A DNA stretch of 63,861 nucleotides, the filler included, from Hausera hauseri (taxonomy: Eukaryota), in the NCBI GenBank assembly GCA_046269625.1. It is 11 parts of 11 records of this genome, joined end to end, with 100 filler letters (N's around TTAATTAATTAA, not from the genome) between each part and the next. Parts side by side here need not be neighbours in the genome. Positions count along the whole stretch, not along the records: positions 19,689 to 24,189 come from JBJURY010552117.1; 10 more parts are not named here. One strand, 5' to 3'. Below are positions 17,590 to 46,666 of the stretch, in pieces. The stretch's first letter is position 1. Every line of letters begins with the position of its first letter. Position numbers and translations under genes: made by a program. The notes beneath the pieces are model-generated. The model worked only from the letters and a program-made list of their open reading frames with translations. It made no database searches and was not told the DNA's origin.

Positions 17590-19164
17590 GACTTTTTACG
17601 TCGTCAAGTACCATTGGTTGATTTTTGAATAAGAAGAGTAATTGAGCCGTTTACGGAATCATATAGCGCTTTGGACATAACGGTACAACGATTTCTCTGT
17701 CTTCTTGACACAAATATTTCATCTTCACTATCTGAGTCAACTTCGGAACATTTTGTGAGCCAATTAGTGAATTTCATAAATGGCATAGTTAAGCCACCAA
17801 GGAATATAATTGTGAACAGAACTATGATTAAAGTAGTTGTAACTAAAACTTGCCGGGTTTCTTGTGATACGCCCTCTAAGTGAAGAGCCAAAGCAAATGC
17901 AATTGCACCTGGAAGTCCACTGAACCACATTACAAATTGATTCTTTCTAGTAATTTTTATTTCTCAAAAATAATTCAAAATAAATGAAAATTGTAAAAAT
18001 ATTAAAAGCACGACCGATCAAACACAACACTATGACCCAGGCAATTAAGGCAGGTTCTGGTCGATGTTTGAAACTAAATATCGCAAGTCCAAGATATGCA
18101 AATGCAATCGATTCAGCCATGAAGGCTAACGTTCGAAATATTTGTAGAACAGTCATCTGAGTAATTGGAAATAAATTCCTGAGTATAATGTGACATAACG
18201 ATACCAGAAAAAAGAATGGCCATGATTCCAGATAGACCAATAGCCTCCGCCAAACAATATGGAGCGTAACAAAATACTAGCATAATTCCAACTTCAAGAG
18301 ATGGAGTCTTTCTGAGGTCCAACAATTTTAGTCCCAAAGATGAGAGAAGAGCAAAAGTTATTCCTATGGCTGGTGATGCTAAGAATGTGACAAGAAATCC
18401 TCCTATAGCCTGCCCAAGCAACTTCAAGGCTGACTCATCTTTCAGTTTAGGCCTATCCAAATTCATAACTGTTGTAGTTAGAACTATGGACACAGCATTA
18501 TTGAGAATGGATTCTCCAAAAACAAGCATGTATAAAATAGGATCAACATCCATTGCCCTAAATATTGCCAAAGTAGCAACCGGATCAACATCAGAAATCA
18601 ACGATCCAAATCCGAAACTTTCAAAAATACTCAAACAATAAGCCAAATTGGCAATTCCACACAAGTAAAGTCCACCGCCAATGACAACGGCTGATATGAC
18701 AGTTCCGATAATGACAAAAACCAGAATAGATCCAATATTTTGGAAAAATTCCCTTTATGCAAATTATATCCGGATTCAAAAATAATTGGAGGTAGAAAAA
18801 CGAGAAAAAATACCATTGGCTGAAATTCTTTTCCCTGTCGCCAATTTCTAATTAATTTCAATATTAATCCGACTAGAGCGCCGATAAATACAATTGCAAC
18901 ATTTTCCGGTAAATATTGAAGTTTCATTGTTATCAAGGCATGAATAATTAAAATACAGACACCAACGATAACCAATATAAAAAATAATGTCAAACTTAAA
19001 TGGTGTTCTTTTTGAGCTGGTGTCAAATGAGAAATAGCCGTTGTAAGTACACTACGTACTGTGGAACTAGTTGATGATAAATTTAAATTACTGGCGTTTG
19101 ATATCATTACCAATTTATGACTCTTGTCGATTAAAAATTTTTTCAACGGAAAAAACTTTAACAC
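17590..19164 (-). pseudogene. SLC9A8: Intronless sodium/hydrogen exchanger 8 (NHE8) pseudogene
   Basis: FFLVFLPPIIFESGYNLHKGNF, FGSLISDVDPVATLAIF, LVFGESILNNAVSIVL, GLSGIMAILFSGIVMSHY and MWFSGLPGAIAFALALHL are collinear with NHE8. Three frameshifts, an in-frame TGA near 17968, and no introns across ~1.5 kb. Confidence 0.92.
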
Positions 19165-21099
19165 GCATTTTACATAACCTAGAATCTTAAATAAATTTTG
19201 ATATATTCAAACATACGCATCCGTTGCTTATTCGGTCCGTCTTTGGGTAACTTGAGCATACTTAACAAGTCGGCTATCAAGTAGCATAGTGGATCAAAAT
19301 TTTATTGAAGAAATAAATTTTTACTATAAAATTGATATTTTTGCAGATTATCAAATATTCGCAGATATTGTGTTGATAATAGTCATAATTTTTTTCAATT
19401 TCCTTTGTATATTTATAATACTTGAATCTGTCGATGAATTTATTAAATTTGACCTTATATGTTTATTCACACTTCGCCCGTCGTTTAAAATGCGAATTTG
19501 ATTAGAATTTATGGTGTTCACCTAACTTTAACCATACTCCTAAACATAACCTAACATAATGCGCAAAAATTACATGTTGTAAGGTGAANNNNNNNNNNNN
19601 NNNNNNNNNNNNNNNNNNNNNNNNNNNNNNNNTTAATTAATTAANNNNNNNNNNNNNNNNNNNNNNNNNNNNNNNNNNNNNNNNNNNNGCTCTACCTATA
19701 TCTTCTTCATTTTGGGCAATAATTGACTTATATTTGCATAGTAGTTCGTAAAATTGACAATATGCGTCTGGTGAAAACTTTGTTTCCACATGAGGCGAAA
19801 ATTTAGCATATTCATATGGTTTTTCTTCAACTGTTATTGCCGATACTTTATAAGTATGACCTAATGTAGTATTAACATAAGCCTTACGGGTGTTGGTGCG
19901 TTATTTACTAATCTGACTGGTACTCTTCCAGACGTTACTCTTGTCAAAATGTTACTAAGTATAATATTTGGATTAACGTCTTCATGTGGCTCAAAATATA
20001 CTGGTTGGTCGTCCTCTTCGCTGATTTAAGCATAAAATAGCATTTCCGTTCTGGGCGGAATATTTTTGTCAACAGGGATCCATACTTTTCCTTGCTTCCT
20101 TTCTTTCATTGTTTTAATCTCTTTTTCTGGTCCAAGTTCAAGTAATTTTCAAGTATGTAAATTTATTGCGATATTGGGTAATTGTTTCAATATATCACAT
20201 CCTAATACTACGTCATTGGTAAGTTGATCCATTATAGCAAACGCATGTTTAAGGATTTGACCCATTAACTGAACTAAGGGACTCAATTTAAATTTTGGTT
20301 TGGATTTTTGCCCAAAAGCTCCTATGCTGCCTGGGTCTAACAATGATGCAGGCTGCAGTGGTTTCCGTAATTCCGGCGGTATTGATTCTAATTTGGTAAA
20401 CGATTTTTCTAATCCAATGTCAATTAAGGCATAAACTTCCCAATCTTCAATGGTGACTTTTGTGAAGGGTCTTCCTTCCATAACTGACCCGTAACAACTC
20501 GACATGTCTTTTGGTCTTTTAATCGAAGAAATCTTATGTCCGTTTATTGTTATCTGTGGTGATGAAATATTATTTTCAATCAGCTGTTTCAGTTCTTCGT
20601 TAGGGTATAAGTCGTTAACTGCCATGTTATTCGTATTGTTCCTAATTAATGGTTCTTGTACTATTGGATTTTGGAACGATTTCACTCCTTTTGTTTCTCA
20701 GACTGTTGATCTGGTCTCTATATTACGAGCTATTCTCGGTGAGTACAATATCCCATGGTCATCTACTGCTCGTCTTTGATTAGTGATCTGCATTTTCTTT
20801 AATACTCCATATTGTTTTGTTCCTTCATATGGATCTTCATAGCTGAAAGGTTTCCGACAGAATGATAATCTACAGGACATCATAGATGTTTTGTCACAGT
20901 CCTCGTATATCGGAGCCGTTGGTGGCACGATAGATAAGGGTGCTCTAATTATTGAATACATTTTATGTCTATTTTGCCCGAGGACTACTTCTCCTCCTTT
21001 AGGCTCGTCATCATCGGAATCACTTCTTCATGTTGTTGATTTCTTAGCTTTTCGTTTTAGTAGAAATGCGCGTCTTGCTCGTCGTTTATAATTATGGTA

Positions 21100-22880
21100 G
21101 CCGACATGGCGTTCAACGTCATTCTTCCATCGATTTTCTTCGTATGCTTTAAGCATTTTACCAAATGGGGTGATAATTTCAATTAAAATCTTGCAGGAAA
21201 ATCCTGTTAGCGTGAATATTTCGTACCCATTTATAACCGCTTAGATTATTACTTTTACTAATTGTACCAAGAAATAGATTGCTAAAAATCCAGATGAGGC
21301 TTGCCCAAAGATTAAAAATCTTCCGTATATTTTGTAGAGTATTTCTATGGTTACCCGTTGGTAATTGTTCGCACCAAGCAGGGATTCCCATTTAGCCTGG
21401 TAGCGGACATCATCTACTACTGATGCCATAGTTTGGTTTAATTCGTGTGTACGTTGCCGTAGAAAGCGAGAAATTGTCGAAAAGCTTCTCTCTCTGGGCT
21501 TGTAAATACCCTTTTAAGATGTGTCCTGAAATTTGTCATCAGTAATTCCCCTCGCTAAATTAGTTCCAGTTAGTCTCTTGGGGATGAAAATGACACCTCC
21601 ATTAGGTAAGCTAACCCAATCTGTTTCGCTGCGCCTAAACTTTGGTTCACTCAAACGTGCCTTACAATCCTTTAATATTGTAGGTTGTGTTGCGTTGTCT
21701 AGCAACACTGTAGTGAGGGGCATGGATAATCGCGAAGTGTTCTGATAGATCACAGGAAACTCTTGCATACACCGTTTTTCTTCGACATTAATTGGTACGT
21801 CTCTTTTCTCGCACTCGTAAGTCAGTAGGTCCTCGCCAGTAACTTGCCCGAAGATTCCTCCTCTCATGAGAATGATCGGTGAAGCTAACTCAGGGTTTGC
21901 ATAAATAAGGGTTAATTTTGTCCTCATAATTTCCGTATCTAATTTGAAGTCATTAGTTATCATTTTGTGATATAGTTCGGCTATCCCGACTTTTCCTTTA
22001 TAATAAAAATAATAGTCTCGATTTTTCAGATAATCTTTAATACTAATATCTTGCGTTTCCAAGTTGTATGTCGTCGCGTTTATCTTTGTTTCTGCGACGA
22101 AGAAGGCTTCGTAATTAGTGGTGAACATTACTACTTCGCAGAGTGAAATCATTTCCTTTTTTATGAATTGCAATCCACGTTGATCAGATATTAATATCGT
22201 AGGTGCATGGAGCTCTGATACATCTTCACGTGCTGTTAACTGATGTCGGATTTATCTACATATCGTTTTCTGGTAGTTTCTTTAAATGTCATTTCCTTAA
22301 TCTTAAAAAAATTACAGCCTTTTCCGGTGAGCGGTTCCCATGTGACGACAGAACTTCTGAAAGCACAGGTTCCGTCCTGTATGTGACATTTTTGGTTTTC
22401 GGTATACAGCTTAGTAACGCTATGGAAAATTACTTTCTGTACTCGAATTTCCGCTTCGTAAAAGTCCACTACTACTACGTTTGCTCCTAATCCTTTTCCG
22501 GTGTTGTATTCCGCTCCACTACAGTGGCCGTTGTGCATATCTAGCCTTCCGACTACTATTTTGTACGCTCTGATTATCTTTCCGGGCTGAATTTTTAGTT
22601 CCATACTATCCCGTTTCAATCTTCCGATTTCTATGGCCTGCTTGCAGTGTTGTCTTCCTAAATTCATTTGAATGGGAGGAATTGTTGGTTTAATTATTGA
22701 GGAGTGCCCGTGCATTAGTCCACAATGGAAAATGCTACGAGATCGTCTCAGTATACATTCCATGCCATTCAAAGATATCAAATCTTGTTGATGACATAGG
22801 AAATAACTCTTCGTCTTTGTCTCCAGTTTGTGTGGTCTGGCATCTTCACATGCTTCTAAATCCATTAATGAGTATTTTTG
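21100..22880 (-). pseudogene. Chuvirus-type (class III, gB-like) glycoprotein, copy B; signal peptide and N-terminus deleted
   Basis: FHCGLMHGHSSI, GHCSGAEY, QDGTC, ELYHKMI, GQVTGEDLLTYEC, CMQEFPV and the TM GQASSGFLAIYFLVQLVKVII match the chuvirus/Jingchuvirales G motif pattern. Confidence 0.85.
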
Positions 22881-23401
22881 TCTACAATAATAAAAAAGTA
22901 CAATAATACTTTTCTCAGCTCTTCTATCGTATTCGCCATTATGATCTTCTTGACTATTGCGTCCTCAGTTAGGCTACTTTTTGACAGTTTGGACGGAGAA
23001 TTTCTACCTGCTTTAAATATCGCCTTTTCTTTATCATCTAATGTATCTTAGCGAAGACTTGAATTATTTACAACACGTATTAGATTCTTCATTAGCTCGT
23101 GTAACTCTTCATTGTCGGTGCTAAAAGTAGGGATCGACATCTGTCTTAGCTCTCTAATTAATTCTCCGTTATAGTCAACTTCTTCTCGGATCTTCCTAGG
23201 TCTTTCGACCGGGTGTTTAGTCCTTGGGGCTTTGGCTATTATTCCACTTAGTGGATTTAGATCCTTGTTATATTGTTCCTTGTCTTCGTATGTCTGTAAA
23301 TACTCGAAATACATTGCCGCATCTCGTACTCACATGATTTGTCCTACCCACTGTTCCGTTTTAGCCTTCCGCGTGGCTTCTTCTTTTGTTTGTTCATTGG
23401 C

Positions 23402-23620
23402 TAACGTTACTACTATTCGATTTGTTTTGCCGAGGATGATTCCTACGTCTAATAATTGTTCTAAATCGTCAAGTATTCTTCCTCTAAAGGAAAATCTGTA
23501 ATTTAGTTCATTTGTTCAGCCGTTATTTAATAGCCATTCTCTTACGTCCTTCACGTAGGAGTATGTGGTTAGCTCACATTCCGTTTCGTCCATCCACTCA
23601 GATGATATCATTATTTTCAT
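23402..23620 (-). other. Internal ubiquitin-like domain (copy B; one in-frame stop)
   Basis: MKIMISSEWMDETECELTTYSYVKDVREWLLNNG*TNELNYRFSFRGRILDDLEQLLDVGIILGKTNRIVVTL aligns without gaps to ubiquitin residues 1-73. Confidence 0.75.
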
Positions 23621-24289
23621 CGTTACCTCGGGTTTACCCTTCAAGATTTTTGCATAGTTCTTTATTAAAAGTTTCGGCGCTGTGTTGTTAATTATGTTTT
23701 CACTGGATAATTTAGTCAAAGTCGGAATGAGTTGTCTGAGCTTATTTTTAGTTATATTCACATTAATTGATTCTATCAAATCCTTTTCCGTTAACGCTGA
23801 GTCTAGGAGCATCTCCACATTGAATTTCCTGTTCTGCGGATACCTTTCTATTTCATCTAGGTGTACTGGAGTTACCGGATTTTAGGCCGTTATTTTTTCT
23901 AGATAAGCATCCCATTCTAATTCATTCCCAATATCTGGGAGTCCATACTCTACTAGACCTGTGTTCATTCTTTGCACATTTTCTCGAATTTCTTTCAATC
24001 TTGGCTGTATTTCTTTTATCTGCGTAGTTCGGAAACCTATTCCGTTTCCACAGGCATATTGAACCATTTTTAGTAGTTCACCTAATTCATTAGAATTGAT
24101 GAATCCCTTCTGGTGATAATCGGTTAGTTCAACAATTACATCCCTTTGCCATCTTTGTACGAATTCTCGCTTATTTTTGATTTCTGATTNNNNNNNNNNN
24201 NNNNNNNNNNNNNNNNNNNNNNNNNNNNNNNNNTTAATTAATTAANNNNNNNNNNNNNNNNNNNNNNNNNNNNNNNNNNNNNNNNNNNN

Positions 24290-26710
24290 CATCAGTGAAA
24301 GAGGCCTTAAATAGACTCTCAGGAGCAAAATGGTTCACCAGTCTGGACTTATAATCCGGATATTGGCAACTAGAAGTAAAGGACAAAGACCGTTATAAGG
24401 CAGCGTTTAAGACTCACGATGGCGTTTACGAATTTAATATTATGCCGTTTGGTATTATTACCGGACCAGCCATATTTACAAGAATGATGAACAAAATGTT
24501 AATGGGACGGAATCATGCCTCTGCATATTTAGATGATGTGATGATAGCATCGAGAACGGAGGAAGAACACCTAAAGGATATTGAACACACACTGATGAGA
24601 TTGGAACAAGTCGAATTGAAGTTAAATCCGAAGATATGCAAATGGGCTCAAAATGCCGTATCCTACCTTAGCCATATAGTTGGAGAAGGAGGATCGAAAC
24701 CTCATAAATCATTATTGGATAAAATATCAGATTGCATGGAACCACAAAATCAGAAAGAGTTAAGACACTGGTTAGGACTCTGTGGTTATTACGCAAGTTA
24801 TGCACCAGATAATTCAAAGATTAATGCACCTCTATATCGCTTACTTAAAAAAGGAATCAAATTGAAATGGACAGACGTTGAGCAGAGGGCTTTTGAGGAG
24901 ATGAAGAAAATATTAACAAGCGAACCCGTTTTGCGATATCCAGATTCTAGCTTACAGTTTATAATTAAGACAGACGCTAGTAAGGAAGGTATTGGATATG
25001 AATTAGCACAGAAAAGACAGGATGAAGAATTAGAACATCCAATTGCTTATGGAGGACGTTCTTTGAAAAAAGCTGAGAAAAATTATTCTGTTACCAAAGT
25101 AGAACCTCTAGCGGTAAAAGAAGCACTTCGAAATTTTAATGTTTATGTTTACGAGCAGAAAATTATAATCGTCACTGACCACAAGGCCGTTACGACTATA
25201 AAGGGGCAAGCCAATAACCCGACGTGCAGACTAAATAGATGGATTGAAGAAATCTCCAGATACAACATTGAATTCCAGTATAAGTCAGGAAATAAACATG
25301 TAGACGCTGACGCACTATCGAGATTAAAGACTAAGACAAGCACAATCACTGTAATGAAGAAAAGTCAACTTGAGGAAATAATAGACCGCCAACGCGCGTT
25401 AACGATAGATATAGCAATTAAGATTTCAGCAGAACAAAGAAACGATAAAGTTATCCATCAGATTATAGAATTTGCTAAAAAGGATGTCATACCGAAAGGA
25501 CGACAGATAAAGGAACATTTACACAGATATGGACATAAATGTTGCATCATAAACGACGGAAACAAAGAAGACATCCTATATTACGAACGAAAATGAAGAA
25601 AATTGATAGTTATTTCAAAAAGTTTACGAACCGAAGTACTGATGTCAGAACATGATTTATACTTAGCCGGACATATGTCTTGGAAGAAAGAATAGTGAAG
25701 AAAGAATAGTGAACAAATACTTTTGGCCTAGTATCTATATCGATGTAAGAAATTTGGTGAAGGCCTGTGAAGTGTGTGCAACTAAACAGAAAAAGACGAA
25801 AAACTACATGGCTAAATTAAAACCAATCAATGTGCCCGATAGGCCCATGAAAGCTATGTCAATGGATATCGTAGCAGCCCTGCCTACGACCCACAAAATC
25901 AATAAGTATATCTTAACGTGTATTGATCGATTAACTCATTTTGTCGAATTGGTAGCATTGGTTGATCAGAAAGCTGAAACTTTAGCCGAAGCAGTAGTAA
26001 GAAGAATCATTTGTCGTTACGGACCACCTGACCAAATATTAACGGATAGAGGAAGAAATTTTACCAGTGAATTATTCGAGAAAATCACTAAGATATTCGA
26101 AATCGAGAGATTAGCAATTACTGCCTATTATCCTCAATGTAACGGAATGGTCAAACGGATGAATGCTACAGTTATACGTATACTGTGAACAGTAGTGGCT
26201 AAGGATCAAAAGGATTGGGACGAATTTTTAGAAGGAACGCAATTTGCAATTAATACCACGCCACATCCAGCAACAGGATTTACGCCATTTTTTATTATGT
26301 ATGGACGTGAAGCCGTGTTGCCCACGGACTTAGGAATGACGCCATACATAGTTAATTTCAAAGATTTAGAACAGAATTTTGCAGAAGTGTTACAAACACG
26401 ATTGCAAAGGTGTTGGGGAATTGCCAAAAAACTATCTCAAGAATATCAAGAACAATTTAAGAAGCAATATGATAAGAAAGCGAAACAGCATAATATAGAA
26501 CAAGGAAATTGGGTTTATGTACATTATTTGGTAGCCAAAAAGGCACCTCACTAAAATTGACTCGTACGTATAGAGGACCGTACAAAGTTACAAAGGTTAC
26601 GCCAACTACAGTATATATTAACAAAAATGGAAAAGAAGAAGTTATGTCAATACAGAGAGTTGTCAAGACAGAAATACGACCCAGCAAACGTTATAATTTA
26701 CGCCAACGTG
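24290..26710 (+). mobile_element. Ty3/Gypsy pol (RT-RNase H-integrase), degenerate
   Basis: MPFGI, AYLDDV, KTDASKEGIG, TDHKAV, HVDADALSR, HHCC zinc finger, MDIV, LTDRGRNF, QCNGMVKR, GPY motif (YRGPYKV) and terminal RYNLR. Confidence 0.93.
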
Positions 26711-28155
26711 AAGTAAAAACTTCGTCGATAGTTACTAGACCAATATCATACGTTCAGATAGTCTTAGCATTATCGTTGATTGCCTCTTACCTCCCAAGAA
26801 CACAAGCCCAATGGTGGCACGATGAATCGTCGTTAGGAGACATATACGGACTTCGGAAGAGTGGATCAAAACCGGAAACTACCAAGACGGAAAAGGAGCC
26901 AACAGCTGAAGAAGTTTAAAAACGAGAATACACTAAATTACTGCAATCAATGACAATTCATTACTATTCAGCAAACTCCGTATGTGTGGGATTTAAAGCT
27001 TGGAAACTGCACCACGATTTCGGACGATTTCTAATTGTTTTACTTGACACAACCACAAGAGGAACAAAAAATTGCGATTTTGAACCTGGAGAAAATACGC
27101 AGTGTTGCGATATAGACTTCGGACACACTTATAACCTCACATACCGTCTATACTTGCCAGACTCAACTGAAGTTTATGTTGAAGTGAAACCACATTCTCA
27201 ATTAGTCATTCCTGCATGGAACAGACATAAAGGAGTAAAACTGAATGAAATATTACGATCCACTGACCCAGAGATAAGAATACTAGACGAAAATATTCAG
27301 AAAATCTCCGTGAATAAGAATAAACGATGCATTTAAGTAGACGCTAGAACAGGATTAACGTTCAGTCAGGAAATTAGTATCACGTTTGAAGCAACAGTTG
27401 GACCGACGCCAAATATAGAATATTGTTCTATTCGAGCAGGCGTGCAAAACCATGCTGTAAAATACCCGTAAACTGAGAATTCAAAATAAGATTTGACTTA
27501 TATGAAGTACGGCCGAATAAACCGAGTATACAGTTGAGAACTTACTACCCAGAAAATAGAATTTGGGAAATTCCAGTAACGACGACCACCAGAAGACCAG
27601 CTACCCAAATTAGTACCATTACGTCAATCATTGCATCAGCCAGTGTGCCTAAAAGAGAATTAGGAAGTATCCCTATTAAATATTCGGCATATCAGTCTAA
27701 GATCGTGTTCTCCGTGGAAGAAAAACAAAATTACGATATATACATAAATTGTCGGACAACGTATAACGAGCAAGTGGTGACGCTATTTAATGGTACTTAC
27801 CAAACAGAGTGAAAATCTGTTAAAACCAAAAACAAAGTATATAGTACAATTGTGTGCCGAAAACAAACAAAATCAGACTGTTACATTGCAAACTTTAGAC
27901 GAGATTTGTGCAGAATCCCATGTATACGAAGATGTAGATGAGCAAATCACAACTCCGATCATTACACACGCCCCAATGGGATTAACTACACTACCAATTA
28001 TATCCATCTCCATACTGTCAACATTTGTTCTCATTATACTAATTGCGATTTTTCGGATAGTTACCAAAAACTGCTATTCTAAGCGTGCTAAAAACTCAGA
28101 ATGAGAATTAAGGGAACTGGAAACCTCTGTTGATCCGTATGATAATATAACCTGA
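26711..28155 (+). pseudogene. Post-integrase type I membrane protein: signal peptide, two Cys-containing repeats, Thr-rich linker, FN3-like domain, TM, YxxI tail
   Basis: In frame with the integrase C-terminus in ORF 26509-26919. SP IVLALSLIASYLPRTQA; repeats ending NTQCCDIDFGHTYNL and (frameshift-corrected) CCKIPVNxEFKIRFD; FN3 hallmark LKPKTKYIVQLCAEN; TM IISISILSTFVLIILIAIF; tail YDNI. Confidence 0.65.
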
Positions 28156-28720
28156 CAACTACAGAGCGGGTTATTCTATCATCTAACAAATAATTGGTTT
28201 AATTTTAAAACCATCGTTTGTCGTAAGATTAACCCTTACTGTTTATTTTTCAGACTGATGAGTAAAGAAAGAAACATGAAACCGGATACCGGANNNNNNN
28301 NNNNNNNNNNNNNNNNNNNNNNNNNNNNNNNNNNNNNTTAATTAATTAANNNNNNNNNNNNNNNNNNNNNNNNNNNNNNNNNNNNNNNNNNNNAAGATCA
28401 TGCTGATGGACGGAAGAAGAAGTTATTTAATAGCACATTTCCAGAACTGCGAATATGTGCATACGAATGTTGTAAATTGGTGCCTATACCAAAGAACATT
28501 ACATGTATTTATCGTGAACATTGTTCACATTGTGCTTATAAAAAGTGTTTAGCGTTATGTCAAGGTAATATTGTTACTAAGTAAATGTGTGCTATGAAAT
28601 TAGTTGGTCTTAACCTATACAGTAGTTACTTAGTTTGACTTGGCCTTATCCTATATCCCACATTACTTGATCAAGAAAACAATACTATATTTCTATACAA
28701 TATTTATTAACAATAACTAT

Positions 28721-31665
28721 TTACAATGTTACATGTCTGTGAGGTAGTGTATGGATTCCATCGCTCAGGATCTGCCTCTTATCATCCATCCAATCTAAAC
28801 TTTTCTTATGCAGAGGTACTGTTTGGATGTTATGATTTATAGACAGCATCCTTCTCATTTCCGATATGATGTGAGTCTGCTCATACAGAACTCTCGCATA
28901 GTCCTCAAAACGGATCTTCTTGGCCAATGTAGTCCTTTGAACGTCCTTAGCTCTCTTTTTGATCTGACCACATACGTCTAGGGAATACAATTTGGACCTG
29001 AGAGCCACAAGTCTCGGGATGATTGCCTCATTTATCTCGTCTTTGAATTTCCCTATGACTTTCATATTGGCAATTGAATATTTGGGATGCTCCTTCGGAT
29101 AGTCCGATGTATCCATGTGTTCAGCCAATTTGGCAAAGTCCTCATAAATATCCTCAGTATGGATTTGATAGATGAAACTATCAGTATCCATGTACATCAG
29201 CTGTATGGACTTGAATGTGGGGACCATGATGTCGTAGTGGAAATTGTACATTAGGGTCTTTGATAGTTCCAATATTGCCATACCCACATATGTGTTTGTT
29301 GAATACCAATGCTGTTTTCAGCATATGGATTCCTACCAAGTTCTCCGTATATGTTGAGTTCCTGTGAAAATTGGGCTTGGCAATGAGCTTTTTTGCCTGC
29401 TTCCAATCACATACCAGCTCGATGTTGATCCTATTGCGGATATTCTCCATGGCCTTGCCAAAACGCTGTTATATAGTTTTAATTGGTCTTTCTCAAAGTC
29501 GTTCTTGGCATTAGTCCGCAGCTTTGTATTGAGATCTATGTATGACTGCAGCCACATGGACTGGTTGAACTGCAGGGCTCTATGGATCTTAGTAATGTGG
29601 AGTCTATGTCTAACTGCCTGCTGGAGATTGATGTAGTGGACTACATACCTCTCCCTATTACCCAGATGACAGCAGCATTATCTGCTTTCCATAGGACGGA
29701 GGCCTGCTCTCAGGGAGGAAAGGCAGCTGTTGATGCCTTGAGTGGATAGAAGCCGAATATTCCATATCTATCTCCAGTATGTATCCCGTATCTCCAGTGG
29801 GATCCAGGTCCAATACAGGGATGTTTTCAGGATTCTCGACCCATTTGAAGTTATCACATGTCAATGGGGCGCTCATTACCCATCCATAAAGGTTGTTGGC
29901 ATCCAGGTATGATATATATATGAGGATTCCTTGGATGGATCACACTGGGCCATATACTTGTTATTGGCCTCACTATACCGGTGAATGGCCTGGCATATTC
30001 CGCCTATAACGCCTCTCTCGATCATAAGGATCATATCATAATCCTTAATGATCTGCAGCCTAATACCAGTATACCTCAGCATTGCTGCCCAACTCCTTCC
30101 TGGAGCCGTAAAGAAATGAGCTGGATCCAAAGTATAGCATTGCTTACATATTTCTGTTTCCCATGATATTTCGTAATTTTTGATCTGACTAGACGCTTAA
30201 AGTTCTTGATCCAAACATGTTTCTTTTCTCCATCGACTAGTAGGAGCAGATCCCTATGATCTTCCAATTCAGCATCACATCTGCAGGGAATAGAATTTGT
30301 CCTCATCATCCAATCCAATTATGTTAATGGATATATTGTTGATTCCACTGAACTTCTTTACTTCATCTATGGATGGTGAGAACTTAATACATTGGAAGTC
30401 ATAGTTGTGCTTCAGATCATTATATAGCCAAACTCGATCTGCTTAATGTTTTTGATCCCGTACGAGTTTATATAAAATGACATACATGAAACAAATGTTG
30501 TGATTATTATGGACATTGACACATACTTTTTTATTAGAGATCCATTCCGGAAGCTGAATATATGAACTACCCTGCGTGGGAGAGTACTTGTGCACATGCA
30601 CAAGCAATCTCTTGATGGTTTCCAGAGTCCATCCATTCTTCTTATCCTGACTCTCCTCAGCTTCACGGATCAGCTTTACGTGCTCTTTATGCAGTCATGC
30701 TACTATATTGGCCTTTTCCAGTATGGACTTATTTTCGGTCCTGAAGGCACTATTGGATTCTTTGGCATCTACACTGATGTATGTGGCCTCCAATTTCATA
30801 TAAACCTTTAGGGCCTTGAGCTTAGCTATGTTGTCCTGGAGAATTCCCTGCGTTTCTTCCTTTGTATATTCCAGGAACTCCTTGATGATTGTTTGGTCAG
30901 TTGCATTAGTAACATATCTGCGGCATTTTCTCTTTAATGCTGGCGCATCAACTGGCTGCTCTCTTTGACTTTTTGTTGCAGCCGCTGCGCGTGATGGGCT
31001 TGATACGCCTTATGGGTCTGATGCGCATGATGTAGCTGCGCGTTTCAATTCTCTAAAAAGTTTCTCAGCTGCTGCACCAGATCGTGCAGCCTAATGCGAG
31101 GCAGAATAGTGCGAAGCAGATGCATCAATATTATGTTGCTCATTATAGATGGCCTCCTTGGACTTTGATGCGAAGTGACTCAAATGATGTTTGAGATTAT
31201 AATAGTACTGTATGTCATCTGCACCTCGTACAGTTTCGCATCCCGGACATATATGATATTGAATATTTTTGGATTTGTATCCATAATGCCGCTGCATCGT
31301 TTCATGACTCTGTTACGGCTTATGTGCATTGGATTTGCAATAAGCATAGGAACCGCACATCTGATTTGCTTTTAGGACAATTATTGTCATTGGCATATTA
31401 TTGTTGAATATTTCTTTCTTCGATCTTGTGAACGAATCCAAATGCTGTTTATGTTGGTTGTAAAATTTCTCGTAACCGGTCCGGCACGCTACCTCACATA
31501 CATGACATACATAGTATTGAATCTTATTGTGCTGGTATAAAAAATAATTCTGCATCACACTGTGGCAATTCTGTTTCTCGTGTTCCTGCGCCATACGAAA
31601 TTGGTAGAAGTTGCAAATCTAAACAAATCAATTATTTGAGGAGCAGAAATAACGAAACTCACCAT
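28721..31665 (-). pseudogene. Maverick/Polinton pPolB gene with N-terminal Cys/His modules and a large internal deletion
   Basis: Motif A YLDANNLYGW (~29880-29910), motif B KLYNSV, motif C YMDTDS, then IGKFKDE, ALRSKLY and DDKRQIL. ATG at 31663-31665 followed by a 44-nt intron; AATAAA just after the stop (~28703). Confidence 0.92.
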
Positions 31666-32619
31666 TCTTTGAAGTGCATTGGGAAATAATGAAATATGTA
31701 GCAATGTCAACGTGCACCGACTCGTTTATGGATTTTTTCGAACATTCTAGAACACTTTGTTTTAACGCATCATTTACATAAACTTGTTTACATTGTGCAC
31801 TTGACTTGTCAATGTTGTGCATAGATGTACCAAAATTTGTTTCAATGCATCAAATGCATAAATTTCTCAGCGCCAAATTTAAAATTTCATCAAGGTTTTC
31901 ATATATGGGATATCTATTGAGCTCGTCAGGTTCTTTGAACAACGTACACTTTATCGATTTTTTGAGTTCGGATCGATAATTATTCAATTTCGATTAAGGT
32001 ACTCGAATATCTAATACCAGATTCAGATTCACCATATGTTGTTTCCTATATACATGCACTATTAGATTTGTTGATTTCAGTCTGCTTCACCTCCAATTTC
32101 TCTGTCAAATGTGCAATCGAAATAAGCACCATTTAATTACTTGGTATTTTTATGTACTTTTTACTTGTAATTAAACCTTGTTTTACTACACCGCGGTACG
32201 TTGCACCACGCCGATATTGATTGCCCTATAAATTTGCCCGAATGTAGTATTTATTAAATCTATCAGATTCTCCAAATAATGCATGTCTGACCGAGTTTTC
32301 GAGTTCTAATAGATAAATATTCGACTTGGAAGCTAGAATTCGAATATCTAACGCCATATTCCGATTGACCATGTATACCTTCCTATCCAGACCCGCTATT
32401 AGATTTATTGATTTCTGCTTCACTGGGCTTCAAATGAACATTTTGCTTAATTCGAAATATTGATTTTGTATCTGCATAGCATATTTCCATGGAATAGTTT
32501 TTATGCATTGGAGGGGGGGNNNNNNNNNNNNNNNNNNNNNNNNNNNNNNNNNNNNNNNNNNNNTTAATTAATTAANNNNNNNNNNNNNNNNNNNNNNNNN
32601 NNNNNNNNNNNNNNNNNNN

Positions 32620-33949: not shown

Positions 33950-35955
33950 GCCTATTTTGCCCGAGGATTGCTTCTCCTCCATTAAGCTCGTCATCGTCTG
34001 AATTATTTCTTCGCGTCATTGGTTTCTTAACCTTGCGTTTCAGTCGAAATATGGGTCTTGCTCGACGTTTGTAATTATAGTAGCCGACATGGCGTTCAAC
34101 GTCATTTTTCCATTTATTTTCTTCTCATGCTTTAAGCATTTTGCCAAACGGTGTGATAATTGCGGTTAAGATCTTACAAGAAAATCCTGTTAGCGTAAAT
34201 ATTTCATACCCATTTATAACCGCTTGAATTACCGCCTTTACTAGTTGTACCATGAAATAGATTGCTAAGAATCCAGATGCAGCTTGTCCAAAAATTAAAA
34301 ATCTTCCTCATATTTTGTAGAGTATTTTTGTGGTTACCCGCTGGTAATGGTTCGCACCAAGCAAGGATTCTCATTTAGCCTGATATCGGGTGTCTTCTAC
34401 TATTGATGCCATAGCTCGGTTTAATTCGTGTGTTCGTTGTCGTGGAAAAGCGAAAAATTGTCGAAAAGCTTCGATCTCTTTTGGTCTGTAAATGCCCTTT
34501 TGAGATATATCCTGGAACTTGTCGTCGATAATTCCTTTTGCTAAATTAGTTCCAGTTAGTTTTTTAGGTATAATAGTGACACCTCCATTGGGTAAGATAA
34601 CCCAATCCGTTTCTCTACGCCTAAACATTGATTCAGCCAAACTTGCCTTACAATTTTTTAAAATGGTTGCTTGTGTCGCATTATCGAGCAGCACTCTAGT
34701 GAGAGGCATGGCTAGACGTGGAGTATTCCGGTAGATCACAGGAAGCTCTTGTATGCATTGTTTTTCTTCGACATTAATAGGTACGTCTCTTTTCTCGCAC
34801 TCGTATGTCAGTAGAACTTCACCAGTAACCCGACCAAAAATTCCTTCTCTCATGGGAATGATCGGTGAGGCTAACTCCTGATTCGCATAAATAAGAGCTA
34901 ATTTTGTCCTCATAATTTCCGTATCTAATTTGCAGTCATTAGTTATCATTTTATGGTATAGTTCAGCTATTCCGACTTGTCCTTTATAATAAAAATAATC
35001 GTCTCGGTTTTTCAGATAGTCTTCGATTCGAATGTCTTGCGTTTCTAAATTGTACGTTTTTGCGTTTATCTCCGTTTCTGCTACGAAGAACGCTTCGTAG
35101 TTAGTGGTGAACATTACTACTCCGTAACGTGAAATCATTTCCTTTTTATGAATTTCAATCCATGTTGATCAGAGATTAATATCGCAGGTGTATGATGTTC
35201 TGATACGTCTTCACGTGCTCTTGAACTGATGTCGGATTTATGTACGTATCGTTTCCCGGTAGTTTCATTGAATTTCAGTTCTTTAATCTTAATAAAATTA
35301 CAGGCTTTTCCCGTGGGCGGTTCCCATATGGCGACAGAACTTCTGAAGGCACAAGTTCCGTCTTGTATGTGACATTTTTGATTCTCAGTATATAGCTTAA
35401 TGACACTGTGGAACATTACTTTTTGGATTCGCATCTCTGATTCGTAAAAGTCTACTACTACTACGTTTGCTTCCAGTCCTTTTCCGGTATGGTATTCCGT
35501 TCCACTACAGTGCCCGTTATGCATATCTAGCCTTCCGGCTACTATCTTATACGCTCTGATTATCTTTCCGGGTTGCATTTCTAATTCCATTCTATCCCAT
35601 TTCAGTCTTCCGGTTTCTCGGGCTTGCTTACAATGTTGTCTTTCCAAATTCATTGGAATTGGAGGGGTTGTTGGTTTGATTATTGAAGAATGTCCGTGCA
35701 TCAGTCCACAATGGAAGATGCTACGAGATCTTCTCAGCATACATTCCATACCATCCAAAGATATCAACTCTTATTGTTGGTATAGAAAATAGCTCTTCTC
35801 TTTTGTTTCCAGTTTATGTGGTCTGATATCTTCACATGCTTCTAAGTCCATTAATGAATATTTTTGTCCAAGTTTGAATCTACCACAATCGTAAACAGTA
35901 ACCGCACCAATCTGTTTTATTAGCGTCATTATGGTGAGTAAGCTGACTAACCAAT
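33950..35955 (-). pseudogene. Chuvirus-type (class III, gB-like) glycoprotein, copy A, with internal signal peptide
   Basis: WLVSLLTIMTLIKQIGA|VTVYDCG..SLMDLEAC, FHCGLMHGHSSI, GHCSGTEY, LYHKMITNDCKL, GRVTGEVLLTYEC, CIQELPV, KGIYRPKEIEAFRQFFAFPRQR, TM, then INGYEIFTLTGFS. The order and spacing of these motifs match chuvirus G and Pao-captured chuvirus env. Confidence 0.88.
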
Positions 35956-38900
35956 TTGATTCGTTCTTCCGGTTGTTATTATCCGTTGTCGTCAGGTTCC
36001 GTATGACGTCTTCGAGTCTATTGTTATTTCTCTTATCTTCCTTGTCAAACAATTTTGGCCAATTTACTTCACACCGAAGTTCCCTAGATGCTTTTCGCGC
36101 CAAACTCGTAACTTGATTTAGTTCATTTTCTCGATTTGGATGTCTTGATTGCTAAGTACAATAATATCTTTCTTAGCTCTTCTACCGTATTCTCGACCAT
36201 AATCTTCTCAACTATTGCGTCGTCAGTTAGGCTACTTTTTGACAGTTTGAAGCGCGAGCTCCTCATCGTTCTAGCTGCGTTAAATATCGCCTTTTCTTTA
36301 TCATCCAAAGTATATCCGCGGAGACTCGAATAATTTACGATACGTATTAAAATTTTCATTAACTCGTTTAATTCTTCATTATCTGTACTAAAAGTAGGAA
36401 TCGACATCTGTCTTAACTCTCTAATCAGTTCTCCATTATAGTCGATTTCTCGGGGCTTCCTAGGCCTGCCAATTGGGCATTTTGGTCTTGGAGCATTGGC
36501 TGGCATTCCACTTAGCGGTACTAGATTCTTGTCGTATTGTTCTTTGTTTTCATCCGTTTGTAAATACTTGAAATACATTGCCGCATCTCGTACTCCCATA
36601 ATTGGTCCTACGCATTGTTCCGTTTTAGCTTTACGCGTAGCTTATTTCGTCTGTTCATTAGTTATTGTTACTACTATTCGATTTGTTTCGCCGGGGATGA
36701 TTCCGACGTCTTAACTGTTCTAAATCATCGAGTATTCTTCCTCTAAAGTAGAATCTGTAATTTATCTCGTTTTTTTGGCATTATTTAATAACCATTCTCT
36801 TATGTCCTTTACGTAGGAATAAGTAGTTAGCTCACATTCCTTTTCTTCCATCCAGTCAGATGATATCATTATTTTCATCGTCACCTCAGGTTTATCCTTC
36901 AAGATTTTTGCATACTTCTTTATTAAAAGTTTTGGCACCGTGCTGTAAATTGTGTTTTCACTGGACAATTTGGTTAGAGTCGGAATAAGTTGTTTGAGCT
37001 TACTTTCAGTCATATACACGTTAATTAATTCCATCAAGTCCTTCTCAGTTAACGCTGAATCTAAGAGCATCTCTACATTGAATTTCCTATTCTGCGGATA
37101 CATTTGTATTTCCCCTAGGCGTACTGGAGTTACCGGATTTTCGGCCGTTATTTCTTCTAAATAAGCATCCCATTCTGGTTCGTTCCCCATATCTGGAAGT
37201 CCATAGTCTACTAAAGCTGTGTTCGTCCTTTGCACATTTTCTCGAATTTCGCAATTTTGGTTGTATTTCTTTCATCTGTGTAGTTCGGCATCCTATTCCG
37301 TTTTCACAGGCATATTGAATCATTTTCAGTAATTCGCCTAATTCATTAGAATCGATGAATCCCTTTGGTGATAATCAGTTAGTTCAATAATTACATCTCT
37401 GCCATCTTTGCACAAATTCTCGTTCATTTTTGATCTCTGACTCATAAAAGCATTTGTTCAGATAAACTTCAAGCTCTTTTGTTAGTTCATCCAACCTTGT
37501 TGCTCTTTGTTTTGTTTTAATACATGTTTCTACTTTCTGTATCTTGGGCATCAATTGTCTCATCCTCTCATCACTAATCTCCGCCATTTCTATCAATACG
37601 TAGGCTTACTCGTACATCTCATTTATAGTTTTTGAGTCAGAGTCCATTGCATCCGACAATTTCTTCACGATCTTGTGTTCCTGAAAGCTAAAATGTGGGT
37701 CATCTTTTATTTTTGTCAACCTAGTATGAAAATTCTGATCTGATCCGGCCATCCATTCTTGTGGTTTATGCAAGAATTTTATTGCGTCCGTTAACATGGT
37801 TCGATGTTCCGGACAGATATCTAAGATTTCAATATCTTGGGAAGAGATCTTATCGATTGGTTTTTCCGTTAAGTATTGGATTCCTTCTAGTCGAGCAACC
37901 TTCAACTTTGAGTTTACATCGTAAATCATGTTCCGTTTTTCCGTGAAGCTCGTCTCTTCGATCAAGTTATAGATCTCCTCCAATATCGACGTTTCTTGTT
38001 CTCTTCATAAATTTTAGTCGTCGTAATGCTTCGAATTGAGTGCGGATGTCTATTTCTATTCGTATTGTGCCTATATCATGTGCACTTTCTGCTAGCTGCT
38101 TCTTTACCATTGGCTCGCTTTGCGGAAATTCTTTTTTACGGTCTTCTACTAGTTTACTTAATCTTGTTATTAGTTCGGACTATTCTGACAATTGATTAGC
38201 GATTATTGGTTTCGCCATTATAGCCTTATCTAACATCTTATATGCATCTTTTAACCATCGTACGGCCCTCTTAGGAAATTCATAATTCGACCGACATAAC
38301 TAAACTCGTTTTTATATTCGTCAAATTCTATAATACAAGCCTTTATTATATATTTAGTTTCTTTATTATTTATAAACATAATTCGATTTCTTAAACTGTT
38401 GAGCTGTGACCTTTTTTCATTTTTCATTTTGATGCGGCTCTCTAAGTCCGCACATCGTCGGTTTTCGACAAAGGCAATTTTTATCATCTCCATTAAAGGA
38501 GGAATATCTATCAGATCTACACCCAATATCTCTAAATCGATACTACTTCGATCGCTAACCGGTTTTTCCCTAAGCCGATTAATCATTGCACAGCGAATTT
38601 CATCCTTTATACGTTCTAAATTACGGGCTACTCTCTTCAGTTTTGGGTTTGCTTCTAAGGTAGACAGTAGCGTTTGAGCCTTAGTAACTTTCACATCAAT
38701 ACTATCTTTGTTTTTACTCCATCCTGAAAATTCTACTCCGCTTTTAATCCACGACTCTAATTCGTGGTTCCATTTTATCAACGTATCTCGTGGCACCTCT
38801 TCCGGTTGTCTTATTGCAATTGCTTCATCGAGTTTCCCTTCACTCCACAATCTTAAACTTTTGTATAATTTCTCCGCAAATTATTGTTCCTTACCAGATA

Positions 38901-39477
38901 TATCTGTTTGTTTACTAATCTGCTTGAGCCTTTCTAAATTGTGTCTGAGTATCTCTGGATTGTGACATTTAACTCTCATCCTCTTTAATTCGTCAGCATT
39001 TTTCCGTGAACGTCGAACTTTCCATTTTCTCGCATCAGGATCATTATTATTGTCCGTTTCTTCCTCATTGGCGGGAAGCGGACAAACTTCGTCTTTCGTC
39101 ATTAACATTTATCATCTCGGGTGTCTCCAACACTTCTGGAATCCCTATAGGCGTAATAGAAATCTCAGGGCAAGTCATCTCTTAGGATAGCAGTGTGGAA
39201 ATCTCTTTTCTTCTGTATCCCTTTTAATGGGAGATCGTGAACGAGTCTTAGATTTTCTCTTAGGCGATGGGCTTCTACCTCTATTCTTCATTATCTTGAG
39301 AACTAATGGTCCGATAAATTCACTTTCGACTTCATCCATTATTTCGTCTGGATTATGCGTTTCGGCTTCTATTTCTGCATCTAATTCTATATTTTGAGAT
39401 GTTGATGGTTTCTCCGACTGAGCTATTCCTTGCGGAACAGACTTTTTACGTGCCATATTAGTATTATTTGGAGCCAA
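35956..39477 (-). pseudogene. ~1100-aa accessory region of unknown function (RS-rich N-terminus, charged helical repeats, UBL domain at ~36660-36878)
   Basis: The ORFs starting at 39477, 39108, 38850, 37983, 37596 and 37323 all share one frame with the Gag knuckle (39771). The 3' half is conserved in copy B. Confidence 0.7.
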
Positions 39478-39648
39478 TGCCCATTCTTTTTCAGTCTGGT
39501 TTTCTTAATCCATGATAAACTTCCGTTAATCGTAATTTCTTTCATATTCTTTTCTAGCGTTCATGACTTGGGGATTAGTAGTTTCACTTAGATTTCTTAC
39601 CGATCTGCGTAAATCTTGCATTTCAATAATCAGGCTTATATCTCCTCA

Positions 39649-40955
39649 TTTACCATAGATGGCTTCTAAGTTATTTTTGATCATACTTGTTTTGTTCGGT
39701 TCGGTAAATGTGACACTTCTAGGATTTGGACATGACCTAGCGATGTGTCCTTCTTTTCCACATGTAAAGCATATTAAATTCCCATTCCGGCCGATCCTTT
39801 GTCGACCATCTTCATTTACAGGCGATTTCGCTCTGTTTGTATTCTTATTCTAGCTCTGTAGCATTTATTTATTCTCTCCGTCATATCTATTATCCTTATA
39901 TTTATTATTAGGTCAGTAACCACCTTGGTTCCTATCTGAATTGTAACTCGATTTACTATACGAATTATTTCGATTATTACTAAAATTTCTGTCGTTTCTT
40001 TGATTTCTATTTTGGACATTTCTATTATCGAAACCTCGATTTCGGTTATTATCATTAAATCGTCTGTTATCTTGATTATTATTTCTATTTCGATTATTGC
40101 GGTCATTATTCCTTTCATATTTGTCGCCTTGATGTGCTTATCTCTAATGCCATTTTTAAGTCTTGGGCTAATTGTAACGTCTTTTCAAAATTATCGGGTC
40201 TAGCCAGAATTAACTGCTTAACTAAATCTCTTGACCATATGCCATTTATTAACTGAGTTGATATCATGACGCCTAAGTCTAGCGGTGTTGCCTTTTCTGC
40301 AGCATCACGTTCTGCGTCTGTCTTAGCTTTTACTACGTTAGCTATTCTCAAGATACTTATAACTATTAGCAAGTTGCTTTAATGCAAATGCAAACTGGGT
40401 AACCGATTCACCCTTTTGTTGCACCCTATTCTGTAATGCCATAAGTTTCTGTTGTGGCGTTACTGTCGGCAATAATTTACGGTTTAATGCTCCTACCAGG
40501 GAGGACCAAGATTTCTTTTCGTCATTAGTGAGCTCGCTATAAGCATAAGCGGTTAAATTTTTCGAATACAACGGCAAACGTTTAATCATCACTTCAGGAG
40601 TAAGACTAGTACCTTCTGCGTGCAAGTTATAAGTTCTCAAGATTTTATTTAACCCGTCCGGATCACCATCGTATGCCGGCAGGTTCAGAGAGTCAAAGAT
40701 AAAGATGTCCAGTTTTTGCGCCACTGGTAGGTTATCTGCAACCATATTAGTCTCAAAATTTACTTTATTAGCTCTAGGTTCCGCAAGAGGGATTTTAAAC
40801 TTATTGGTTTGCTCAACAGCGGTTAAATCTGTATTAACTGAATTTACTCTAGTGTCAGATAGTGAGCGTTTATCTAACTTTTTACTATCTCTATATATAT
40901 TTCTACGCATCTGGCGTATAGGCGAGTTTTCTGTGGCGTTTGAATCAAGGTTCAC
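39649..40955 (-). pseudogene. gag: Gypsy Gag with N/R-rich linker and CCHC zinc knuckle
   Basis: LPAYDGDPD, W..L..AL, RVQQKGESVTQFAFALKQL; knuckle CFTCGKEGHIARSC at 39730-39771. Confidence 0.88.
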
Positions 40956-41127
40956 TTTTAACCTATCAATATTTGTTCTCGAAAGAATTTTACTTTAAAC
41001 CATGTTCAACTTATAACCCGAAATTTAAAACTTTCAAACTATATTCAAATACTTGATGTGGGGCGTTGATCGCCGGTATGTCGTTAATTAGCTTTAAGCT
41101 GAAGTAAGTCTAGCGAGGCACTGATCT

Positions 41128-41145
41128 GTACTGCTAGGGTCGCCA
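41128..41145 (-). promoter_or_regulatory. Primer-binding site, probably tRNA-Arg
   Basis: TGGCGACCCTAGCAG lies 2 nt after the LTR-terminal CA; TGGCGACC is typical of Arg-primed Gypsy elements. Confidence 0.75.
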
Positions 41146-41147
41146 AA

Positions 41148-46594: not shown

Positions 46595-46666
46595 ACTTAA
46601 TGTAAAGTCGACAGGATATGGGAACGATATGTTTCCCACCTAGACTGAAAGTGAGGGAAAAAACCC

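What the first reader, a model, noticed from the sequence alone, without database searches (positions are those of the whole stretch)
23402..23620. Hidden ubiquitin-like domain inside the retroelement accessory region (both copies)
Seen: reading through one stop gives a 73-aa segment that aligns gaplessly to ubiquitin, matching M1, I3, E16, V26, R42, F45, G47, L50, D52, L56, D58, I61, T66, V70 and L73, with conservative I23V, K27R, I30L, K48R and E51D. Copy A (36660-36878) encodes the same domain (YRFYFRGRILDDLEQL.DVGIIPGETNRIVVTI) with two small indels. The ORF track misses it. It has no C-terminal GG, so it is an integral UBL rather than a conjugatable one. Known: Gag ubiquitination helps recruit ESCRT for budding, and integral UBLs occur in some RNA-virus polyproteins. 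Inference: a built-in ubiquitin mimic on the cytosolic Gag-fused part, for budding, proteasome targeting or as a DUB decoy.
Basis: partly seen in the sequence, partly recalled or inferred. Interest (0 to 1): 0.8.

Follow-up and report, generated by a model that had tools for sequence, protein, structure and literature searches.

The report
Ubiquitin-like domain in Burro-type retroelement
A decayed, very abundant virus-like jumping gene carries a conserved ubiquitin-like stretch, predicted to fold like ubiquitin, between its capsid and envelope genes, a cargo already noted in planarian Burro elements; its binding surface differs from ubiquitin's, so it likely docks a specific partner rather than imitating ubiquitin.

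Summary
Read with X at one private stop, 23620-23402 (minus strand) matches ubiquitin at exactly the 15 listed positions and is the best of 127,280 windows. A profile of 24 independent ubiquitin-like domains scores both copies far above 20,000 shuffles. The frame is under purifying selection, dN/dS 0.19, the same as its flanks. Pfam gives no hit and an unaided fold is unreliable; an alignment-guided model is a beta-grasp, which is partly circular. The host element is a Ty3/gypsy retroelement with the order Gag, accessory region, gB-type Env, protease. A ubiquitin/SUMO-like motif in this position is already published for planarian Burro elements (PMC6431247), and this scan noted it before in other genomes. 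The 'ubiquitin mimic' reading is weakened: no diglycine, none of ubiquitin's seven lysines, Leu8 is acidic and Ile44 is Tyr or Ser, while engineered Gag-ubiquitin budding needs Leu8 and Ile44 (PMC2958808). Best reading: an integral docking domain with its own partner, on the cytosolic side of the membrane-anchored polyprotein. Function untested. New member of a known kind.

The parts
23402..23620 (-). Ubiquitin-like domain, copy B (73 codons; one stop at 23516-23518)
   Evidence: stop not shared by copy A or by 99% of laid depth in run X1
36663..36878 (-). Ubiquitin-like domain, copy A (two frameshifting deletions, near 36781 and 36712)
   Evidence: 22.8 bits on the 24-member profile with X at the breaks
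41138..41145 (-). Primer-binding-site-like octamer just after a likely LTR end (copy A); resembles Arg-tRNA-type sites
   Evidence: comparison with the tRNA table of PMC13524379 supplement 1
40147..41003 (-). Gag capsid region (copy A, broken)
   Evidence: PF03732 E 0.016, below cut-off; frames
39730..39771 (-). CCHC zinc knuckle (one found)
   Evidence: PF00098 E 2.2e-07
36879..39729 (-). Charged, likely helical accessory region of about 950 codons upstream of the domain (copy A; copy B holds its last 190 codons, 23621-24187); includes an Arg/Ser-rich patch near 39230-39280
   Evidence: no Pfam family above cut-off in the pieces scanned; one distant relative P0003; dN/dS 0.22 for the shared part
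35957..36662 (-). Likely helical region of about 235 codons between the domain and Env (copy B 22884-23401, with a 272-nt deletion)
   Evidence: dN/dS 0.18; no Bcl-2 signal
35903..35956 (-). Signal-peptide-like hydrophobic segment in front of Env (copy A only; deleted in B)
   Evidence: highest in-frame hydropathy between Gag and Env, KD13 1.82; cleavage is inferred
34230..35902 (-). gB-type envelope ectodomain and transmembrane segment, copy A
   Evidence: PF24664 E 1.2e-11 and 5.5e-24; hydrophobic segment at 34271
21250..22883 (-). gB-type envelope ectodomain and transmembrane segment, copy B
   Evidence: PF24664 E 1e-14 and 1e-18; hydrophobic segment at 21291
20590..20922 (-). Late-domain-like motifs in the Env tail to protease linker: PTAP (20911-20922, copy B only) and LYPxxxL (20590-20610; also 33578-33598 in A)
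   Evidence: short motifs that may be chance; motif definitions recalled
20179..20478 (-). Aspartic protease, in frame with the Env tail (copy B)
   Evidence: PF00077 E 0.0014, just below cut-off; frame

Best explanation
The segment is a conserved ubiquitin-like sequence, predicted to form a beta-grasp domain, inside the coding frame that runs on into Env and protease of a decayed Gag-Env-Pol gypsy retroelement, and it likely served as a fixed docking module for one specific partner (probably the element's own capsid/nucleocapsid part or its own cargo proteins) rather than as a general ubiquitin mimic. Shown: homology to ubiquitin-like domains, purifying selection, position about 235 codons before the Env signal segment, no diglycine, altered Leu8/Ile44 surface, no ubiquitin lysines. 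Inferred: capture from a host gene; translation in one polyprotein with Gag; cytosolic location, held at the ER membrane by the Env signal segment; binding of a specific partner through its acidic, remodelled surface, as the coronavirus nsp3 Ubl1 domain binds nucleocapsid protein, which would link membrane-anchored Env to assembling capsids. Both copies in the window are broken, so the function belongs to the family's active period.
For: Profile of 24 Asgard/viral ubiquitin-like domains: copy B 20.0 bits (P 2.6e-08), copy A 22.8 bits, 0 of 20,000 shuffles each, best of 5,088 tiles at E 2.2e-04; holds without the motif-picked member and without true ubiquitins (19.1 and 23.0 bits); hhalign probability 93%, E 3.3e-07. 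A blind two-copy profile against the PDB returns 7 sequences at E <= 10, 3 of them ubiquilin/Dsk2-type domains. Alignment-guided model pLDDT 90.2, Z 12.7, rmsd 1.2 over 70 residues to a ubiquitin-like domain. dN/dS 0.19 over 70 codons, p 1.7e-04, other frames 0.89 and 0.94; 17 of 23 segregating variants are synonymous against 6 of 13 private ones. Surface: E8, S44, R48, net charge -4; Tyr at 44 in copy A. Fused-ubiquitin budding needs L8 and I44 (PMC2958808 passages). Ubl1-nucleoprotein binding: abstracts of PMC8769549 and PMC9938351 in the listing.
Against: No partner was tested; the docking role rests on analogy. No Pfam, NCBIfam or single-sequence PDB ubiquitin hit. The unaided model has pLDDT 42 and finds no beta-grasp; the confident model used ubiquitin-like rows and so leans to that fold. 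The signal sits mostly in residues 40-73 (17.4 bits against 0.1 for 1-39), and 20-23 bits is below the leave-one-out scores of all 24 reference domains (31-97 bits). Conservation is no higher than in the flanks (0.15-0.24). Trp9 and Tyr44 could rebuild a hydrophobic patch. The nearest PDB sequences are proteasome shuttles. Continuity from Gag to the domain is seen in one broken copy only.
Confidence: 0.42

Rival explanations
1. Adaptor to the host ubiquitin-proteasome or ER-quality-control machinery, in the manner of ubiquilin/Rad23 domains: it would tune turnover of the Env-Pol-bearing part of a single polyprotein, or serve the element's ubiquitin/apoptosis cargo.
For: 3 of 7 PDB hits of the two-copy profile are ubiquilin/Dsk2 domains (E 0.65-1.5); Burro elements carry BIR, MATH and other ubiquitin-pathway cargo; foamy-virus Env leader abundance is set by ubiquitination of its cytosolic part (PMC7828637 passages).
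Against: Those E-values are not individually significant; proteasome receptors use the same Leu8/Ile44/Val70 surface (recalled), which is altered here; no lysine at ubiquitin's chain positions; no BIR, MATH or RING found in the pieces scanned.
Confidence: 0.25
2. Built-in ubiquitin mimic that recruits ESCRT for budding, the natural form of engineered Gag-ubiquitin fusions.
For: Ubiquitin without its diglycine, fused to Gag, can replace a late domain, and K48/K63 are not needed for it (PMC2958808 passages); the element has a fusion glycoprotein; R42, F45, G47 are kept; W9/Y44 may give a hydrophobic patch.
Against: That activity depends on L8 and I44, which are acidic and Tyr/Ser here; the domain lies about 950 codons after the zinc knuckle and may be cut away from Gag; separate late-domain-like motifs exist in the Env tail.
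Confidence: 0.15
3. Captured host domain kept only as a well-folding spacer in the polyprotein, with no partner.
For: dN/dS equals that of the flanks; surface residues have drifted from ubiquitin while the core is kept.
Against: The same kind of domain recurs at this position in Burro elements, which a neutral spacer does not predict.
Confidence: 0.08
4. Chance resemblance: a coding segment that only shares a short motif with ubiquitin-like domains.
For: No curated family hit; unaided fold fails; most of the score is in the second half.
Against: Four separate sequence tests agree; domain length and hydrophobic core positions fit without gaps; strand-strand-helix-strand order appears even in the unaided model.
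Confidence: 0.06
5. Cleavage signal or decoy for host deubiquitinases.
For: Ubiquitin-like inserts act as cleavage signals in some RNA-virus polyproteins (recalled; search returned 0 papers).
Against: No diglycine or basic tail after the last strand in either copy.
Confidence: 0.04

Closest known systems
Burro / GYPSM1 giant gypsy-like LTR retrotransposons of planarians (PMC6431247, section 7 read whole, figure not seen; Grohme 2018 and Jurka 2007 not seen)
   Same: Gag with CCHC knuckle at the start, envelope related to mononegavirus glycoproteins in frame between Gag and protease, and a ubiquitin/SUMO-like motif (PF11976 there) in the Gag-Env interval.
   Different: More compact (about 8.3 kb from Gag start to the RT start); one knuckle found against two or three; no Bcl-2, BIR, MATH or ankyrin signal detected in the broken pieces scanned; direct sequence kinship to Burro could not be tested.
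GAG-ENV-POL HSV/gB-type errantiviruses of Nematoda, Bryozoa and Platyhelminthes (PMC13524379: abstract, part 1 of sections 5 and 6, section 22, passages, flatworm rows of supplement 1)
   Same: Gene order, gB-type envelope, many copies.
   Different: The paper's main text has 0 occurrences of 'ubiquitin' and does not treat the Gag-Env interval in the parts read; placement in its Pol tree is not possible because RT is not in these pieces.
Integral ubiquitin-like domains of ubiquilin/Dsk2 (PDB 6jl3, 1wx8, 2nbv)
   Same: Best ubiquitin-like sequence matches in the PDB; no diglycine; same predicted fold.
   Different: Weak scores (E 0.65-1.5); position 44 is Tyr/Ser; internal in a retroelement polyprotein.
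Coronavirus nsp3 Ubl1 (PMC8769549, PMC9938351; start of abstracts only)
   Same: Integral ubiquitin-like domain in a viral polyprotein that binds the virus's own nucleocapsid protein: the working model here.
   Different: An analogy only; no sequence relation was tested or is claimed.
Engineered Gag-ubiquitin fusions (PMC2958808, passages)
   Same: Uncleavable ubiquitin in cis on a Gag-containing protein.
   Different: Need L8 and I44, which this domain lacks.

Membership tests
Ubiquitin-like (beta-grasp) superfamily | Significant profile similarity to ubiquitin-like domains | tested here: met
   20.0 and 22.8 bits, 0 of 20,000 shuffles; controls; hhalign 93%, E 3.3e-07
Ubiquitin-like (beta-grasp) superfamily | Hydrophobic core positions kept | tested here: met
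   I3, I5, C15, L17, V23, V26, L30, F43, F45, L50, L56, V59, I61 hydrophobic; 13 and 36 are Thr, 67 depends on register
Ubiquitin-like (beta-grasp) superfamily | Beta-grasp fold predicted without help from ubiquitin-like rows | tested here: inconclusive
   single-sequence model pLDDT 42, fold searches uninformative; guided model pLDDT 90 is partly circular
Pfam ubiquitin family PF00240 (strict) | Score above the curated cut-off | tested here: not met
   0 families at E <= 1 for the decayed copy B
Conjugatable ubiquitin-like modifiers | C-terminal diglycine | tested here: not met
   neither copy has it
Ubiquitin mimics read by ubiquitin-binding domains | Leu8-Ile44-Val70 hydrophobic patch | tested here: not met
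   E/D at 8, S/Y at 44; 70 is Val or Thr by register
Ubiquitin mimics read by ubiquitin-binding domains | Binding to ESCRT or proteasome receptors | not testable with these tools
   needs binding assays
GAG-ENV-POL gB-type errantiviruses | Order Gag, Env, Pol | tested here: met
   PF03732 (weak), PF00098, PF24664, PF00077 (weak) in this order on the minus strand
GAG-ENV-POL gB-type errantiviruses | gB-type envelope with signal and transmembrane segments | tested here: met
   PF24664 above cut-off in 4 of 4 Env pieces; hydropathy
GAG-ENV-POL gB-type errantiviruses | Paired LTRs and tRNA primer site | tested here: inconclusive
   primer-site-like octamer at 41138-41145; the 3' end is not in the pieces
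GAG-ENV-POL gB-type errantiviruses | RT/integrase of the Ty3/gypsy lineage | not testable with these tools
   both pieces end at the start of RT; no genome is held
Burro / GYPSM1 | Env in frame between Gag and Pol in one ORF | tested here: inconclusive
   16 of 17 stop positions are private to one copy and the shared one lies out of frame, from 24187 to the protease; the Gag-side 2.3 kb is in one broken copy only
Burro / GYPSM1 | Ubiquitin/SUMO-like motif between Gag and Env | tested here: met
   this domain; only one found in the interval
Burro / GYPSM1 | Bcl-2-like domain before Env | tested here: inconclusive
   no Pfam or PDB hit; three-sequence profile: 3,461 of 10,000 shuffles score as well; tests are weak for a decayed copy
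Burro / GYPSM1 | BIR, MATH, ankyrin cargo, two or three knuckles, dUTPase-like region | tested here: inconclusive
   none detected and one knuckle found in the pieces scanned; not every frame piece was scanned in its right frame

The most novel reading that the evidence does not exclude
The domain is a natural, uncleavable, lysine-free ubiquitin surrogate with a rebuilt aromatic patch (Trp9/Tyr44) that lets an enveloped retrotransposon recruit ESCRT or the proteasome without any host ligase: evolution's version of the engineered Gag-ubiquitin fusion.
Probability: 0.15. Interest if true: 0.7.

Novelty: new member of a known kind. Interest (0 to 1): 0.3.

Why it matters
It extends the Burro-type cargo to a compact family with no close relative in the protein collections searched, and it sharpens the open question of what these ubiquitin-like domains do: the surface evidence points away from plain ubiquitin mimicry. 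If the domain couples the membrane-anchored envelope to capsids, or recruits ESCRT directly, it would explain how a single Gag-Env-Pol polyprotein builds an enveloped particle. As it stands the kind of feature is published and the function is untested.

Tried and rejected
Curated families: Pfam and NCBIfam gave no ubiquitin hit; PHROGs gave phrog_28929 of unknown function at E 0.0064 over residues 10-43, not followed. Single-sequence PDB search: one unrelated hit. Ubiquitin-only profiles were weak (P 0.00096; hhalign 1.8%), as expected from their low diversity. Unaided fold and its two fold searches were uninformative. Searches for relatives that hold the domain: 1 protein at E <= 0.001 among 1.84 billion representatives, matching only the upstream region; none in three word-seeded searches; none in viral contigs; the one metagenome locus, L124, is a bacterial TonB-type receptor by its sequence, a false positive. 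ESM Atlas gave no result. No RNA holder listed. A Bcl-2-like domain before Env, suggested by eye and by Burro, was not supported. A second ubiquitin-like domain in the interval was not found (frameshifts could hide one). PTAP is in copy B only. The control profiles failed silently and reported stale numbers; they were rerun. Sacco et al. 2022 is not held. Literature searches for a described function of such domains in LTR elements found only the Burro mention; subscription papers and the figures were not visible.

Full report
Setting. The window is 11 pieces of 4.0-9.5 kb joined by N-linkers; no whole genome is held. Piece 4 (19689-24189, copy B) and piece 7 (32620-41648, copy A) are 84-86% identical over 4.5 kb. 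On the minus strand copy A reads: primer-site-like octamer (41138-41145), Gag capsid (PF03732, E 0.016), one CCHC knuckle (PF00098, E 2.2e-07), about 1,250 codons of accessory sequence, a signal-like segment, a gB-type envelope (PF24664 above cut-off in 4 of 4 pieces), a transmembrane segment, an aspartic protease (PF00077, E 0.0014) and the start of RT. The family is abundant and diverged: 28,172 contig pieces of run X1 and 2,003 of run X2 lie on copy A, in 30 of 30 bins, most under 95% alike. The host was not determined; a flatworm is likely from the layout and from earlier notes on this genome, which I did not test.

The observation. The 73 codons and the single stop are as described. With a ubiquitin taken from a viral contig, the 15 identities are exactly those listed; the gapless score is the best of 127,280 six-frame windows (33, next 10) and 1 of 100,000 shuffles reaches it. 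Copy A has the same segment with a 1-nt and a 2-nt deletion.

Is it coding? Yes. Between copies, 70 codons give 13 synonymous changes on 45 sites and 11 non-synonymous on 165, dN/dS 0.19 (p 1.7e-04); the two other frames give 0.89 and 0.94; flanks, Env and protease give 0.15-0.24. One search listed 40 of 67 variant rows; I classed the 36 that lie in the segment outside the stop codon: 17 of 23 segregating variants are synonymous, against 6 of 13 that are private to copy B. The stop and Ser44 are private to B (99-100% of depth reads otherwise). Of 17 stop positions between 24187 and 19950, 16 are in one copy only, and the shared one lies after a 1-nt indel and is out of frame. So the domain, Env and protease were one frame. 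The stretch from Gag to 37460 exists in copy A only, so fusion to Gag is inferred.

Is it ubiquitin-like? Curated libraries miss it and so does a single-sequence PDB search. A blind profile of the two copies returns 7 PDB sequences at E <= 10, of which 3 are ubiquilin/Dsk2-type domains (E 0.65-1.5). I built a profile from 24 domains: 20 from Asgard loci chosen by PF00240, 3 viral ubiquitins and 1 motif-picked viral domain. Copy B scores 20.0 bits, copy A with X at its breaks 22.8; 0 of 20,000 shuffles reach either (maxima 11.4, 10.8); reversed sequences score below 0; the four best of 5,088 window tiles are this segment. Dropping the motif-picked member, and then the ubiquitins too, changes little. 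hhalign gives 93%, E 3.3e-07 over 56 columns. Against this: residues 1-39 alone give 0.1 bit, and all 24 reference domains score higher in leave-one-out (31-97 bits). The unaided AlphaFold model is unreliable (pLDDT 42) though its element order is strand, strand, helix, strand, helix, strand; its fold searches show no beta-grasp. With the 24 domains as alignment rows the model has pLDDT 90.2 and matches ubiquitin-like folds (Z 12.7, rmsd 1.2, 70 aligned; Foldseek E 2.7e-06). That shows compatibility, not independent proof. I put the chance that this is a true ubiquitin-like domain at about 0.9.

Surface. The core is kept, the functional surface is not: position 8 is Glu/Asp, 44 is Ser in B and Tyr in A, 48 is Arg, none of ubiquitin's seven lysine positions holds Lys, net charge is -4, and no diglycine follows. 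The structural alignment pairs residues 1-73 with ubiquitin 1-71, suggesting that the last strand is shifted by two, which would put Thr rather than Val at the 70-equivalent. Trp9 and Tyr44 could form a different hydrophobic patch. Phe at 43 resembles the SUMO-type motif (recalled).

Mechanism. No membrane segment was found in frame between Gag and the domain, and the first one is the signal-like segment about 235 codons downstream (the hydrophobic hit at 40369 is in an off-frame stretch). The domain would therefore be cytosolic and tethered to the ER by the Env leader (inferred). Ubiquitin fused to Gag can drive budding, but needs L8 and I44 (PMC2958808, four passages), so plain mimicry fits poorly. 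A viral integral ubiquitin-like domain that binds the virus's own nucleocapsid protein is known in coronavirus nsp3 (starts of abstracts), and the foamy-virus Env leader has a cytosolic part that is regulated by ubiquitination (PMC7828637, passages). I commit to a docking module for a specific, probably element-encoded partner (0.42); a ubiquilin-like adaptor to host degradation machinery (0.25) and an ESCRT mimic (0.15) follow. None of these was tested.

What is known. GAG-ENV-POL elements with gB-type Env are described for nematodes, bryozoans and flatworms (PMC13524379). For planarian Burro elements, PMC6431247 section 7 (read whole) reports Env in frame between Gag and Pol and a 'Ubi2/SUMO-like (PF11976)' motif between MATH and BCL-2. 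I reached that paper through earlier notes of this scan, which also record such domains in other genomes. This element shares the layout and the domain, but no Bcl-2, BIR or MATH signal was detected and only one ubiquitin-like domain. No close relative holding the domain was found, so the family itself seems unsampled in those collections. Five searches found no paper on the function of such domains; Grohme 2018, Jurka 2007, Sacco 2022 and the Burro1 B-IAP study (cited in PMC13465017, passages) were not seen, nor any figures.

Verdict. Interest 0.3.

Noticed in passing
window 18116-19206 and 16170-16883 (minus strand): Intron-free, decayed pieces of a sodium/proton exchanger (PF00999, E 2.1e-32) and an RNase III domain (PF00636, E 0.00096) lie upstream of another gypsy Gag-Pol in piece 3; possibly captured host mRNAs.
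   Followed up: partly
window 26494-27809 and 57828-58731 (plus strand): Two other gypsy Pol ends are followed, after integrase, by frames with a signal-peptide-like segment and cysteines and no Pfam hit above cut-off; perhaps a second surface protein. Whether either is the 3' half of this element is unknown.
   Followed up: partly
window 20590-20922 and 33578-33900 (minus strand): Late-domain-like motifs between the Env membrane segment and the protease: LYPxxxL in both copies, PTAP in copy B only.
   Followed up: partly
window 39230-39280 (minus strand): Arg/Ser-rich patch after the zinc knuckle; a candidate partner for an acidic domain.
   Followed up: no
window 37816-37893 and 38518-38595 (minus strand): Weak internal repeat of 26 residues, 46% identical, E 0.02-0.03, about 700 nt apart in the accessory region.
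   Followed up: partly
window 32661-33098 (minus) and 54934-55422 (plus): Beta-rich-looking region between protease and RT, where Burro has a dUTPase-like motif; no Pfam hit.
   Followed up: partly
window 1-1966, 28394-32519, 59782-63861: Three related pieces (68-81% identical) with frames that resemble Polinton/Maverick-type DNA polymerase genes (recalled; no Pfam hit for 28724-29317).
   Followed up: no
window 46655-52354 (plus) and 54006-54638 (plus): A gypsy Gag plus a 1,596-codon open Pol frame with long Asn-rich inserts, next to a mariner-type transposase start (PF17906, E 9.9e-09).
   Followed up: no
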